Source: Octopus vulgaris
Taxonomy: Eukaryota
Direction: 5' to 3'
Assembly: GCA_951406725.2 (NCBI GenBank)
Contig: OX597823.1
Location: 1,054,001 to 1,118,000, forward strand
Length of the DNA: 64,000 nucleotides
Shown: in pieces, positions 5,623-52,334 of the stretch
Position numbering within the stretch: position 1 is the first letter of the stretch
Layout of the letters: the number at the start of each line of letters is the position of its first letter
The notes under the pieces: generated by a model
What the model was told of the DNA's origin: nothing
The model's database searches: none
What the model saw: only the letters and a program-made list of their open reading frames with translations
Translations under genes and position numbers: made by a program

Positions 5623-7322
5623 AAATGTTCTTTATAAAATTATTTTAGCATTTTCTATTTTGACTTGTTTTTTCATATATATCAACTCGTGTGTTCCTTT
5701 TCACCCTAATACATATATATATATACAAAATGTAAATACATGTATATGTATATATATATATGTGTGTGTGAGTGTATATATATATATATATATATATATA
5801 TATATATATATATATATACATACATACATACATACATACACACACAAAATATATAATTATACAAATATATTCGTTCGAGATGAGCGAATTAGATTTAACT
5901 TGCATATAAGTGTGAACATTTGTATATGCGCTTGTGAATACATTATATTCGTATGGGTGTGTATAAACGTTTATAATTATGTACCTTATGTTGTACCATA
6001 CTAAAGACCGTAAAGGGAGTTACATCCCCAAAAACTAGAAATAGATCTATGGTTAAACCATTAAAAAAAACCTCTTTTGTTCATTTCCGTGCCAATGTGG
6101 TAAATAAAGTAGTTCTTAGAGCCATTTGGCGTCTATTTCTAGCATGTCGCGCTACTCATTAGTGCCCTTACTATAATTGTATCTATATAATTATATATTT
6201 TGTATTATATATATATATATATATATATATATATATATATATATACAAACACATACACACACACGCATATATATATGCATATATATACACACATACACAT
6301 ATATATATTTTTCCAATAATAATAATGTATACGGCTTGATATGTTTGCCTTGCTTTAAATTTTGTTCTCCTCTTTAACAATTATATATACACTAAAACAA
6401 ACAAATTTCACAATACATACATATATATATATATATATATATATATATATATATATATATATATATAATCACCTTTTATCAATTCAAAATGAACAATTAA
6501 TTTCACCATCTAGAAAATTACATATAATAGAAATATTAAAATTAAAATAACAATAATATACCGATGATTAAGTAAATTGCAAAATAATAATAAAAACCTA
6601 TATATTTGGTATATACCAGATATATACGTTATATATACCAGATATATATATATATTTATAATTGAGGAGGGGGAAAAAGAAAATTACATTGTTTTTGCAA
6701 AAAAATAATAAACATATACAAAAATTAAAAAATAGGTACACCGATACATTGTAAAGTGTTTGTGTATCTTGAGTTCAATGATAGTTCTTGGAAAAATTAC
6801 CTTGGAGGATTGAGATCCACGTGATTAAATCCATGTGGTGTTTAATTTAGGATGTTTGTTAAATGAATGTCAAAACAGGAAATGGGGTAGGAGTTATCCA
6901 GTTCCTGTGAGTAAGGGGAGACAACTCTGTGGATTTTGTGCTCTTCAATTGGGGTTATCAATTTTTTGTAAGACAGGATATTAATAAACCTTTAATTGTA
7001 AAATTATCATTTTAGCTTCATTTGCATTATCTTTTTATATATAATTGTTTGCTAACTTGACATTCAGATTTTAACACTTTATTTATATTGTTTTCTAATT
7101 ATATTAATTTACATAAACCAATTTGTAATTTCATTTCAGATTGTTATGTCATATATAATAATAATAATAATAATAATAATAATAATAATAATAATAATAA
7201 TAATAATAAATAAAGAATATAATTTTTAGCTTGAAGTGATAACTGCATGATATCCTTATATATTTGTATTAGTCCATCCATGAAGAATGAGGTAGAAAAA
7301 AGAAGTATGATCATCGTGGAGT

Positions 7323-8686
7323 TTACATATTAAGATGCGTTTTGAATTTTTCAATAAAAAGATTCTCCTTGTTAATTCTTTCTTGTGTGGTGATTCCGTC
7401 TTTATATTGGTAGAAATGGAATATGTAAAATTTGGGATTTTTGTTTTTAGCGCACGAGTCTATGTGGCTACTTAGTGGAATTTGACGGTATTCTGGGAGA
7501 TTTATTTGTTCTTTATGGACCGCTACTCTTTTACGTAAAGAGAGGCTCGTTTGTCCAACATAATTATGTTGGCAACCGGCGCATGTGAGAACGTAGATAA
7601 GGTTCTCTCAGGAACAGGAGAAGTTAATCTTGATTCTAAACTTTGTTCCTTGTTTGAAAGTAAATTCAGAGCCTTCAAGTAGGAAGGAGCAGGTGCCACA
7701 GTTTGGGCGTGCACATTTTTTAACTGATGGGGGTGGATGTGTTGTGTGAAGTTTGGCATTTGTCAAGAGTTTTTTCAAAGATTTATGTTGCCTTTTACAT
7801 TTGAGGATTTTATGTGTATTGATAATGTTATTCATTTTTGGGTCTGTTGACAGTAGAGTGTGGTTTTGTATGATTGTGGTGTATGCTTCGATATTTTTGG
7901 GGTTGTGGGTGGAAATGTATGGAAGTATTTTGGGGTTGTGTGTGGTGTTGGGTTGGGTGGTTTTCAGTGTAATGTTGTCGAGTTCTTTGGCACGTTTTAT
8001 TCCATACTCTATAAGGGTGGAGGGATATTAGCGTTGTAATAGTGTTTTTTTGAGGTCTTGAAGGCGTATTTCTCGAGTTTTTGGATCCGAGACAATGGTG
8101 CATAACCTTTTAGCTAAGTTGAAAAGGATATTTATCTTGGTGTGTTTTGGGTGGCATGGGCTAAAGATGAGGTATTGTTGTGAGTCTGTAGGTTTGTGGT
8201 AGATGTCTGTTATGAGTTCGTTCTTAGGTGTTTTTATAATTAGGAGATCAAGGAAAGGGAGATGATGTTTGCTGAATTCGATAGTGAATTGCATGTTGGG
8301 ATGTATGTTGTTCAGTATGGTTTTGAATTCCAGAAGCTTTTCATAAGATTCTTTCCATATGATGAAACAATCATCAAAATACCTTTTCCAGTTTTCCTTT
8401 AGGTAGATGTGGAAAACGTGTCCAAATTTCTGGCGTGATATCTCATACAGTGATAGTTCGAAGAAGCCCATTATGAGGTTCGCAAGGACTGGTGCAGCCT
8501 TGGTACCCATCGCAATACCACATTTTTGACGGTAGTGTGTGTTATCGAAGAGGAAATAATTAATTGTCAGAATGAACTTGAGTGATTCCGTAATGAAGGT
8601 CTTGTTAATGCGGTCAGGGAATGCTTCTGGGTGTTTCTCTAGCCAGAAATCAATTGCCTCAATACCATATTCATGTGGGATGTTGG
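7323..8686 (-). pseudogene. Second Penelope-like element RT + GIY-YIG (5'-truncated, disrupted)
   Basis: NIPHEYGIEAIDFWL, GIAMGTKAAPVLANL, WKRYFDDCF, YHKPTDSQQYL, CARPNCGTC, ends KENLFIEKFKTHLNM*; 5' end abuts (TA)n. Confidence 0.9.
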
Positions 8687-8764
8687 ATCTTGGATATATA
8701 TATATATATATATATATATATATATATATATATATATATATATATATATATATATATATATAAA

Positions 8765-9012
8765 GAAATAATTGAGATCCATTTGAATTAGGTACTTAAG
8801 TTGAGGCACCAAGTCAGTCCGGCATTATCCACACACCTCAAAGTAAGGTTAGTAAAATCAAAATAAACAAGACATCAAGAAGTGCCTCAGTACAACCGTT
8901 TCAAGCGACCCCATTTAAATTGATGTAATGATTGCATTGTTCAATTAAATGGAGTTGCTTGAAATGGTCGTACTGCATCACTTCTTGATAACCTATTGTT
9001 TATTTTGATTTT
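8765..9012 (-). mobile_element. pLTR 3' end with fold-back inverted duplication (8854-9012)
   Basis: Similar to 47150-47450 (aattaggtacttaa..gaggcacc; ccgtttcaagcg..ccatttaa); imperfect palindrome centred near 8932. Confidence 0.7.
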
Positions 9013-49725: not shown

Positions 49726-50464
49726 TGTATATATTTTTATCTTATATTTAATTTTTTTTCTATATGGTATAATTTAATAATTTCATTGTTGAATTGATAA
49801 AAGCTGGGTTTTTTCTAATATATATATATAATGTTGTTTTGAACTGGCAAAGGTTAGTGTGATTGGACTTCCTATTGTTATACCTTCTGTTAGCGCAACT
49901 TTGAGTTAAGATTGATTTTAAAATGAGATGTTTCTTTATAATAATATCTGAATATTGATGATAGATCATCTTATAAATAAGCTGTCAGTGTTTGGTGAAA
50001 GTAATTAGGTGGGCAGTTATTAATTTATTTAAATATCTACAATTGTGTGTGTGTATGTGCAAATATATATATATATATATATATATATATATATATATAT
50101 ATGAAAGGTAACAAAAGAGATATTCTCGGAAATGTCTTTATTTTCCTGAAGGATTTATTTTCCCTCGGGTTTGTCTGAACATTAGAGACATGTTCTTCCA
50201 GCCATTACTCGTCTCCAATTTATCTTTAAACAATTTCTTGCATTTATTACTAAGAAGTTAAATGTTGCTGGTCTGCAATGAGAAAGAGATGCATCACTGT
50301 TCATGGAAAAGACGTAAAACCTTTTGCAATTTATACTTGACGTCTTCTCTTTTTCAAGTTCAATTCCTTCTGGCGTGGATTTTGTTTCATATTGTTTTCT
50401 TCCAACTTTTGTCACAAGACCAGTAGTTTTGAGAGAAAAGGAGGTCACTTGAATACGTGTTGCC

Positions 50465-50600
50465 ATCAGTGCTTGACTGGTTCTTTTATTTTATCGAACC
50501 TGAATGGATCAAAGGCAGAGGCGAACTACTTGGCATTTGGATGCAGAAGGTAAAATCCCGGAAGAAATGCCGCTAAGCATTTTGTCCGACGCACTAATAA
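50465..50600 (-). mobile_element. Old SINE family B copy
   Basis: actggttcttttattttatcgaacctgaatggatcaaaggcagag, a diverged reverse central domain. Confidence 0.5.
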
Positions 50601-52334
50601 GCACCAACAATATACGATGTTGATTCAGTCGACCACACCCTTCCGTTGTTGATATTTAATTTGTCTTTAGTCCAAAATATTTGAGAAGAATTAAGATAGA
50701 TTGCTAATTAATTGCATTACGCCTTCTCTTAGAAATATAGATTTTTTTCTTTTACTTAAAACAAACAAACGAAGCAATGCTAATTCTCTTACACAATTCC
50801 ACTCATTGCTCTTTCTCTTTTAATTAACAGTTTTATTTATCATTCATAGGTTTTTGTCGACGATCTGATAGCAGTTTAGAAAACAATTGTTTAATCATTC
50901 AAAAGAACATCTGTGACCGATGGATTTTTAAAACAGGAATCAGCAAGCGTCTCGCATTGCTGTCGTGCTTTATTCTCCGTTAAAAATGAATTATTAATGA
51001 CGTAGGTGGTACCTTTCAGCCAATCATTGTGTCGAGGCATCGGCAGATGTTACTTTTATTAGGCAGGAATTACAGTGAGAAACATATTTAGTTGATTGTC
51101 GAATGAAGAAGACGAATCAGTCTATTAACAACAATACAGCTATTACAACAACATTTACCTTGTTGTTGTTTTTATTGGTTCGTGTGAATGGGATTCTATT
51201 GAAAATATTTGTCGCAAGGACGAGAGTTAAGCAAAACTCTTTAAAGTTCTAACAATACAAAACAGAAATATATCACATTATTATGTTTGGCTTGTTGCCG
51301 TTTTACTTCATTTCATCCATGATCGAGCAGACATATGATCAAAGACATTCCAATACTGACCACCCACCCTACACTTTTAGAGACTTAGGGTTTTTCGAGG
51401 ACTAAATCATTATGCAAAAGTACCTTCTAAAGATCACTGCAGAGTATGAGTTGGGGAAGATTTCATTGGTATTTTTAGCAGATCGAGTCACTGGTCCATC
51501 TGTTCCTTTATCTATTACGACTTACTTCTTCAGCTGCCGAGCCGCAGGCCTACCGACTTGTTCGGGCTTACCTTGACTCTTAGCATCGCTTCATATTCAT
51601 TTATCCTGCAATCAACTACCCTGGTAGTACCGGACCCGAAAGTCCTCCAGAACAGATCTGCTACTTCATCTTCGTTGATCCCTAGAGTTTCCCCGAGAAC
51701 GTCATCGCTCTTACCCACCACTAAATTTCTATATATTGCTAACATAGGATTATCTATATGTATGTATATAGGTGATTGTTTCCTTAAGGTATGATCAACA
51801 AAAATGTACTCCATCCAATGAAAGATATCGTTTAATGTACACAGCATATAGGTGAACTGCTAAGAGTTTCTTGCTGTGAAGACGCGTGGCAAGACACGGT
51901 TTTATAACGTACCTTGTGTTTCCAAGCAATTTATTGGGCTCTGAGCACATGGTCTGTTTTATTTGAAAATTAGGACATTGGTACACAAGAAACTACCTGA
52001 AAAGATGAGAAAAAAATCGAGAAGGTTGATGCAAAAAATGGAAGGGTAATTGAAAACAAAAAGAAAAGAAAAAAAATTAGAGTTACGTCCTCTTTGACCG
52101 TATAAGCCATAATTAAACTAGTTGTAGTAGAAAAATTCAAGAGAGAGAGATGCAAATTCTGAGAGAGCGCTGCTCAATCCGGAGAGGGTGGTACCCTCCA
52201 GTTCGCCAAAAGAAACTTGTCTATTTGTTTGCATCAATCTTCACGTTTCTATTGTCCCGTTTTCTCTCGTCGTTCCGCATGTATTGGCGTCCTGATTTTC
52301 AAATAGAACAGAACATGTGCTCAGAGCCTGTATG

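What the first reader, a model, noticed from the sequence alone, without database searches (positions are those of the whole stretch)
6101..51490. Second conserved hairpin motif (CATG/CTG-CTA-GAWA-TAG-nn-GYCAAA) in HHR-less elements: candidate unknown structured RNA
Seen: catg-cta-gaaa-tag-acgccaaa (minus, 6124-6146), catg-cta-gata-tag-cagtcaaa (34123-34144 and its mirror), catg-cta-gata-tag-acgtcaaa (48374-48395 and its mirror), and decayed versions on minus near 44380, 51470 and 22290. The first three sit in mutually dissimilar TA-adjacent elements, two of them fold-backs, with no HHR. An enclosing stem is visible in some (tttagagt/actctaaa at 34099/34150; agggc/gctct at 6101; gacag/ctgtc at 22275-22325). 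Inference: a hairpin, then C-Y-A-A, then a closing helix loosely recalls P4-J4/2-P2 of HDV-like ribozymes, but I cannot complete that fold and the functional strand is ambiguous. It may be a new ribozyme or an RT/endonuclease recognition signal.
Basis: inference. Interest (0 to 1): 0.7.

Follow-up and report, generated by a model that had tools for sequence, protein, structure and literature searches.

The report
Long-range helix linking retrozyme start sites
The short motif is real, but it is not a free-standing hairpin: in small ribozyme-carrying jumping elements of this animal genome half of it is predicted to pair with a partner 50-95 bases away, bracketing the two points where copies begin, so it likely helps a Penelope-type copying enzyme start on both DNA strands.

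Summary
The motif is real: 8,617 exact genome hits, reversed control 0. The reading 'hairpin in HHR-less elements, perhaps a new ribozyme' mostly fails. The three main window copies are clipped or decayed members of hammerhead retrozyme families with Penelope-type tandem and inverted insertions. The hammerhead lies on the strand opposite to the motif as written. Across families the proposed hairpin shows no compensatory change. Instead, the motif's half that reads CUAGCAUG on the hammerhead strand pairs with a box 50-95 nt away. This is the only consensus helix and it covaries: 129 of 162 cells paired against 97±5 shuffled. It brackets the two copy-start sites; 18 of 18 classifiable two-armed insertions use one of each. 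Best reading: a docking and dual-priming structure for a Penelope reverse transcriptase (inferred, untested). The three decayed hits belong to a separate old repeat, M, whose head fits an HDV-like fold except for a short P1. The scan noted such retrozymes and their two starts before on other DNA; I found the helix neither in those notes nor in my paper searches.

The parts
6125..6146 (+). Motif in a retrozyme arm that ends at start site 1, read on the hammerhead strand; the helix-L partner is absent from this copy
5995..6053 (+). Type I hammerhead with mutated core (CTAAAGA where L044 has CTGAAGA)
6149..6169 (+). Hairpin A and CCCTT before start site 1; the TA run begins about 6180
34001..34160 (-). 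Complete module in an arm ending at site 2: hairpin C, motif, helix L, hairpin A, AU-rich site 1, partner box, hairpin D, CCUU
   Evidence: this copy was in the model's training set
34122..34130 (-). Helix L 5' arm (3' half of the motif on the RNA strand)
34048..34056 (-). Helix L partner box
34320..34357 (+). Clipped mirror arm of the 34123 fold-back
48250..48411 (-). Complete module, left arm ending at site 2, of the 505-nt retrozyme family; partner box at 48292-48302
48436..48512 (+). Right arm ending at site 1 of the same fold-back (motif at 48452-48473)
46797..46943 (+). Divergent module copy outside the training set: motif changed, helix L predicted, with G.U pairs on this strand
   Evidence: (43.6 bits, E 1e-5, rough)
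22181..22326 (-).
44245..44417 (-).
51300..51492 (-).
17955..18085 (+). Further repeat M copy
18939..19080 (+). Further repeat M copy
42683..42824 (+). Further repeat M copy

Best explanation
The motif is one arm of a covarying long-range helix in hammerhead retrozymes, and this helix likely organises the RNA platform on which a Penelope-type reverse transcriptase would dock and start copying at two fixed sites. On the hammerhead strand the predicted order is: small hairpin C, a U-rich linker, helix-L arm (CUAGCAUG), hairpin A, CCUU, AU-rich site 1, a spacer, the helix-L partner, hairpin D, CCUU, site 2. Shown: the order, the covariation, the two end sites, and one site per arm. Inferred: that the hammerhead strand is the template RNA, that the fold forms in cells, that a Penelope protein binds it, and that a dimer primes both strands of a (TA)n cut. 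The same 20-mer in repeat M is a separate case without helix L.
For: A hammerhead lies 100-175 nt 5' of the motif on one strand in all three families. In 91 cassettes found with the central bases left free, 7 have a hammerhead upstream on that strand and 2 on the other; random windows give 11 of 2000. RNAalifold returns helix L as the only consensus helix of 14 representatives: 93.6% of cells paired, 3 pairs with double changes, covariation score reached by 2 of 500 shuffles, slid partners 15-40% paired. With the partner located by its own sequence (66 of 245 cassettes, 27 subfamilies), 129 of 162 free cells pair against 97±5, 0 of 5000 shuffles; swaps include U-A/A-U, U-A/C-G and G-C/U-A. Both complete window copies fold this way (z -2.8 and -3.4), as does a divergent copy outside the training set. 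Non-standard pairs favour the hammerhead strand in hairpin A (32 G.U vs 17) and hairpin C (34 vs 9). The distance to the flanking microsatellite is bimodal, about 0-40 and 90-120 nt (142 of 214 cassettes measured); 18 of 30 two-armed insertions could be classed and all 18 pair site 1 with site 2. PMC11167929 (parts 1-2 of 4 read): a Penelope-like protein cuts both strands of AT-rich DNA, starts at two internal RNA sites that bound the 'tail', is predicted to be a dimer, and needs RNA 3' of its hammerhead.
Against: No autonomous partner was found. Remnants of Penelope-like ORFs occur in only 8 of 424 sources and in both orientations. The young 753-aa Neptune family lacks the motif; of its 29 loci one gave a module hit (L120), at a place and strand not tied to the ORF's 3' end. 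Retrozyme-like family X (4,693 hits) inserts at (TA)n without this motif, and of its 20 loci only two gave hits, from neighbouring sequence, so the module is not universal. Helix L alone hardly tells the strand (129 vs 123 cells), and the 34123 copy folds as well on the other strand (z -4.7). The shuffles ignore relatedness, so the numbers are not probabilities. The A1 representatives were chosen for having a pairing partner, which inflates. Most cassettes were found with patterns that fix part of the motif. Only 66 of 245 cassettes had a locatable partner. The tail here is about 100 nt, against 30-40 in published Penelope elements (PMC8557442 passages). There are no binding or priming data.
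Confidence: 0.55

Rival explanations
1. The motif on the hammerhead strand is an Sm-protein site copied from or mimicking U1 snRNA, flanked by two stem-loops; helix L would mask it in long or circular RNA.
For: This genome's U1 has an unusual Sm region sharing 10 nt with the motif; shuffled motifs share a 10-mer with any of six RNAs in 97 of 5000 trials. The reverse strand of M aligns in register with the U1 3' end (3 of 200 shuffles) and the U2 Sm region (6 of 200). Sm sites are flanked by two stem-loops (PMC6954390 passages).
Against: AUUU is intact in only 53 of 91 cassettes and is broken in the 34123 and 48374 families. With 36 comparisons the alignments are not significant, and the M profile finds nothing in snRNAs. 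I saw no 3' box after hairpin A (by eye). The promoter-like box is weak and nearly palindromic. The resemblance was noticed after several other ideas had been tried.
Confidence: 0.12
2. The motif is P4-J4/2 of an HDV-like ribozyme on the strand as written. It would be active or formerly active at the 5' end of repeat M, and a relic in the retrozymes.
For: The M consensus fits P2 (one mismatch), P3, a 7-nt L3, a 6-bp GAAA-capped P4 and a C-N-R-A junction; 0 of 150 shuffled dimers give a relaxed hit. M's left edge lies 8-9 nt before P2, where P1 would begin, and its right end is (CAA)n. In copies chosen by the head alone the motif is 0.77 identical against 0.57-0.59 for its flanks (23 of 30). 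A 4-nt P1 occurs in a wasp R2 ribozyme (PMC3774820 passages).
Against: The strict descriptor gives 0 hits in M; P1' is only 5 nt, the adjacent P1 gives 4 pairs, and the relaxed hits used distant 5' strands. The descriptor was partly recalled and was loosened after the fact. In retrozymes P4 does not covary and there is no P1. Rfam gives 0 hits at gathering score in 9 loci. The active Dong/R4 LINE has no M-like ends (6 copies). Similarity between M and retrozymes outside the 20-mer is weak (2 of 11 at p<0.03).
Confidence: 0.18
3. Helix L only gives the circular retrozyme RNA a compact, stable shape, or the two boxes are inverted repeats kept alike by DNA-level recopying, with no role in enzyme recognition.
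For: The strand signal of helix L is weak. Fold-back copying is common in these elements. Family X spreads without the module.
Against: The helix keeps its place relative to both start sites although the spacing varies from 50 to 95 nt. Both sites are preceded by a hairpin plus CCUU. G.U pairs are tolerated on one strand.
Confidence: 0.15

Closest known systems
Animal non-LTR retrozymes (PMC7229834; bioRxiv 10.64898/2026.07.22.740005)
   Same: Non-coding tandem monomers with a type I hammerhead, proposed to be non-autonomous Penelope derivatives.
   Different: Monomers here are about 420-505 nt. In the passages read, no conserved structure outside the hammerhead and no start-site module is described.
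PAc Poseidon element of Anolis (PMC11167929)
   Same: Two internal RT starts 3' of the hammerhead, both target strands cut, a 'tail' at one end, and starts in a stem-loop.
   Different: PAc is autonomous with a 30-40 nt tail, and its binding motif is not mapped. Here the element is non-coding, the tail is about 100 nt, and a covarying helix brackets it.
HDV-like ribozymes at the 5' ends of R2, Dong and other LINEs (PMC3774820)
   Same: The head of repeat M fits P2, P3, L3, P4 and J4/2 and lies at the element's edge.
   Different: P1 is 4-5 nt against the usual 6-7; the fold is absent from the retrozymes; cleavage is untested.
Sm site plus 3' stem-loop of U1/U2/U4/U5 (PMC6954390)
   Same: U-rich segment between two stem-loops; 10-nt identity with this genome's U1.
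   Different: AUUU is broken in 38 of 91 cassettes, and the site's 3' half is paired in helix L.

Membership tests
Non-LTR (type I HHR) retrozyme | Tandem non-coding monomers | tested here: met
   505-nt arrays; dimers of about 470-483 nt
Non-LTR (type I HHR) retrozyme | Type I hammerhead in each monomer | tested here: met
   Core and three stems parsed by eye and by script. Rfam gave no hit at gathering score. The window copies are clipped or mutated.
Non-LTR (type I HHR) retrozyme | Self-cleavage and circular RNA | not testable with these tools
   Only assembled contigs were available
Penelope-dependent element | Tandem plus inverted copies, tail at one end, microsatellite target | tested here: met
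   18 of 18 classifiable two-armed insertions pair site 1 with site 2
Penelope-dependent element | Ends shared with an autonomous PLE | tested here: inconclusive
   One young Neptune family lacks the motif; no ORF-linked copy; other PLE families were not sampled
HDV-like ribozyme (retrozyme copies) | Nested double pseudoknot with P1, P2, P3, L3 | tested here: not met
   No hit that includes the motif, on either strand
HDV-like ribozyme (retrozyme copies) | Conserved P4 hairpin at the motif | tested here: not met
   70% paired, 0 compensatory pairs. P4 is variable in known ribozymes, so this test is weak alone.
HDV-like ribozyme (repeat M) | P2, P3, 7-nt L3, P4, C-N-R-A junction | tested here: met
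   On a reconstructed consensus; 0 of 150 shuffles; descriptor partly recalled
HDV-like ribozyme (repeat M) | P1 of 6-7 bp starting at the cleavage site | tested here: not met
   P1' is 5 nt, with 4 pairs to the adjacent strand; 6-7 bp is usual and 4 nt is known once
HDV-like ribozyme (repeat M) | Self-cleavage that depends on the catalytic C | not testable with these tools
   Needs an assay
Sm site / snRNP code | AUUU-N-U core | tested here: inconclusive
   AUUU intact in 53 of 91; broken in two of the three window families
Sm site / snRNP code | Adjacent 3' stem-loop | tested here: met
   Hairpin A in 79 of 91
Sm site / snRNP code | Single-stranded site near an RNA 3' end | tested here: inconclusive
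   The 3' half is predicted paired in helix L; RNA ends are unknown
snRNA promoter element (PSE) | Motif upstream of snRNA genes | tested here: not met
   0 of 30 U1 and 0 of 30 U6 loci within 3 mismatches; the U1/U2/U4/U5 upstream core is a different word

The most novel reading that the evidence does not exclude
These retrozymes carry a U1-like Sm site that is exposed in RNA ending at site 1 and masked by helix L in longer or circular RNA. One structural switch would then couple host snRNP machinery to dual priming by a telomerase-related reverse transcriptase.
Probability: 0.1. Interest if true: 0.85.

Novelty: new variant of a known kind. Interest (0 to 1): 0.5.

Why it matters
How a Penelope reverse transcriptase picks its RNA and its two start points, and how protein-less retrozymes borrow it, is open; the one in vitro study I read located the needed RNA region but not the motif. 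A helix that covaries across many subfamilies and brackets both starts gives a break-and-rescue test. The result also removes a false new-ribozyme lead for the main hits and isolates one cheap, real ribozyme candidate, the head of repeat M.

Tried and rejected
2) The enclosing helix: it competes with hairpin A; its non-standard pairs favour the strand as written (50 vs 21), a point against my strand choice, but it was not predicted.
3) Motif as snRNA promoter: rejected.
4) U7 origin: no U7 above the cut-off in the genome, so untested.
5) 5S or tRNA origin of M: no support.
6) Dong/R4 as M's partner: no similarity in 6 full-length copies.
7) Rfam on the window: the 150 best of 264 matches shown were low-complexity miRNA/snoRNA-type hits below gathering score; the other 114 were not shown.
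8) Viral contigs: 9 hits, no shared flanks except one duplicate pair, taken as chance.
9) A masked-alignment test of motif conservation in M was inconclusive (0.63 vs 0.37-0.65). A DNA search with one M copy was too insensitive.
10) My first hammerhead finder was too strict and missed known cases; it was relaxed. Two of its 7 same-strand hits (180 and 208 nt away) may belong to other elements.
11) RNA: no RNA holder listed. Four contig sets were laid; they show neither strand nor ends.
12) L064, L089 and L383 were dropped from the 15 representatives before alignment A1 (decayed, or partner lying in a neighbouring repeat), and two window copies were added.
13) Twister, pistol and hatchet were considered from recall only and not tested, apart from the Rfam scans.
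Full report
Observation. The genome (2.8 Gb, microsatellite-rich; octopus-like by inference and by earlier scan notes) has 8,617 exact 20-mers, with 0 for the reversed control. Of the first 30 listed hits, 17 overlap one old repeat that I call M. The other 13 look like (TA)n-flanked elements of the kind at 6124, 34123 and 48374, or could not be assigned.

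The three main elements are retrozymes. The 48374 element is a clipped fold-back of a 505-nt monomer that forms tandem and inverted arrays. Each monomer has a type I hammerhead on the strand opposite to the motif as written, about 175 nt away. Longer members of the 34123 and 6124 families show the same at 100-170 nt, and the 6124 window copy keeps a hammerhead with a mutated core at 5995-6053(+). In 91 cassettes gathered with eight central bases left free (86 loci around the first 100 of 868 hits), a hammerhead was found upstream on that strand in 7 and on the other strand in 2. None was found in 82, which are mostly clipped or folded back; the background is 11 of 2000. Loss toward the hammerhead side is what 5' truncation of a hammerhead-strand template would give (inference).

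In the 91 cassettes its outer pairs are broken in 27 and 55 copies and its inner pair in 16, and no pair shows a double change. On alignment A1 it is 70% paired with 0 compensatory pairs. Subfamilies found through an upstream box rather than the motif carry variants that shorten or break it. Neither complete window copy forms it on either strand in the lowest-energy fold.

What is conserved. On the hammerhead strand a small hairpin C precedes the motif's U-rich middle, and hairpin A follows it (79 of 91, with U-A/C-G and A-U/G-C swaps), ending in CCUU. The motif's 3' half pairs with a box 50-95 nt downstream; I call this helix L. RNAalifold predicts it as the only consensus helix of 14 representatives: 93.6% paired, covariation reached by 2 of 500 shuffles, slid controls 15-40%. 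Those representatives were preselected for a partner, so I repeated the test with the partner found by its own sequence. It was found in 66 of 245 cassettes, which collapse to 27 subfamilies; 129 of 162 free cells pair against 97±5, 0 of 5000 shuffles. Relatedness is not removed by these shuffles, and two of the 27 rows are M-type copies with spurious partners. A covariance model recovered the window's copies and a new, divergent one at 46797-46943(+), whose motif has changed while the helix is still predicted. Strand: G.U counts favour the hammerhead strand in hairpins A and C (32 vs 17; 34 vs 9).

Link to copying. Copies end in two zones, about 0-40 and 90-120 nt past the CCUU after hairpin A. 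Of 30 two-armed insertions, 18 could be classed, and all 18 have one arm at each site; 12 were unclassifiable at one or both arms. Both sites follow a hairpin and CCUU, and the two arms of helix L lie just before the two hairpins. For the Anolis element PAc, the protein cuts both strands of AT-rich DNA, starts at two internal RNA sites that bound the tail, is predicted to be a dimer, and needs RNA downstream of its hammerhead (PMC11167929, parts 1-2 of 4 read). I infer that helix L folds the tail into a platform presenting both starts to such an enzyme. Against this: no autonomous element with the module was found, and another abundant (TA)n-targeting family lacks it.

Repeat M. The hits near 22290, 44380 and 51470 are copies of a repeat of about 230-250 nt, roughly 30-40% diverged from its consensus. 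There are six in the window and 303 distinct hits in 1.18 Mb of fetched DNA (a biased sample), with 52 tandem and 10 inverted neighbours. It ends in (CAA)n on the strand as written; I saw no hammerhead and no helix L in its consensus (by eye). The motif is its best-kept part: 0.77 vs 0.57-0.59 in head-selected copies, and only 47 and 60 exact hits for head and tail words against 8,617 for the motif over all families. One blind test was inconclusive. Its head fits the inner elements of an HDV-like fold, but P1 is only 4-5 nt. It stays a candidate, not a member. How M and the retrozymes came to share the 20-mer is unresolved, because flank similarity is weak.

Sm-site rival. An earlier scan note on snRNA-type promoters led me to the snRNA genes. 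The motif is not their promoter, but U1's Sm region shares 10 nt with it. AUUU is intact in only 53 of 91 cassettes, so Sm binding cannot be a general requirement.

Literature seen. bioRxiv 10.64898/2026.07.22.740005: part 1 of 5 and passages. PMC4209133: part 1 of 4. PMC11167929: parts 1-2 of 4. Passages only: PMC8557442, PMC7229834, PMC13282606, PMC4870747, PMC6954390, PMC10879173, PMC3774820. No supplements were read. Searches listed nothing that describes this motif or helix; subscription journals and Repbase were not searched. The HDV descriptor details and the labels Neptune and Dong for the window's ORFs rest partly on recall. Earlier scan notes report such retrozymes and their two fixed starts on other DNA; the notes shown do not mention the helix.

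Verdict. A real, structured module of Penelope-type retrozymes: a new variant of a known kind, and not a new ribozyme in the main copies. Interest 0.5.

Noticed in passing
window 3699-4919(+) and 7314-8687(-): Remnants of Penelope-like RT-endonuclease ORFs. The second belongs to a young family with many intact frames of 750+ aa, whose 3' end has a variant minimal hammerhead.
   Followed up: partly
window 38330-39400: Perfect 269-nt fold-back that looks like a Penelope-type 3' end with a variant minimal hammerhead and 44-45-nt tandem duplications.
   Followed up: no
window 26167-28530(+); L529-L534: Fragment of a young Dong/R4-type LINE in (AAT)n. Full-length copies have frames of about 1,227 aa and short repeated 5' ends, with no HDV-like fold found.
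   Followed up: partly
L264-L293, U1 gene: U1 has an unusual Sm region (AUUUCUAAG); U2, U4 and U5 have U5 tracts. The upstream promoter core ATCAGT lies at -55 to -60.
   Followed up: partly
L031:4407-4718, run X7 contig 23: One contig carries many A>G and T>C differences; this could be editing of fold-back RNA or an older copy, and the run type is a guess.
   Followed up: no
L031:4332-4836, run X1 contig 2: A 496-nt contig covers the monomer as a circular permutation; tandem DNA would give the same.
   Followed up: no
L463-L482: Family X (4,693 hits of a 23-mer) ends at one fixed point before (TA)n and has its own hairpin-AGCAU-hairpin-CCUU run without the motif.
   Followed up: partly
L207, L214, L068, L049, about 310-340 nt past the motif: A conserved, nearly palindromic box resembling the snRNA promoter core. 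It scores best on the strand opposite the hammerhead, so its direction is unresolved.
   Followed up: partly
L375, L376 and other U4 hits: Many dispersed 5' fragments of U4; the two that were fetched run on into what looks like SINE sequence.
   Followed up: no
repeat M 3' part: The last 70 nt before (CAA)n can form two crossing 5-bp helices, a possible pseudoknot, read by eye from the consensus.
   Followed up: no
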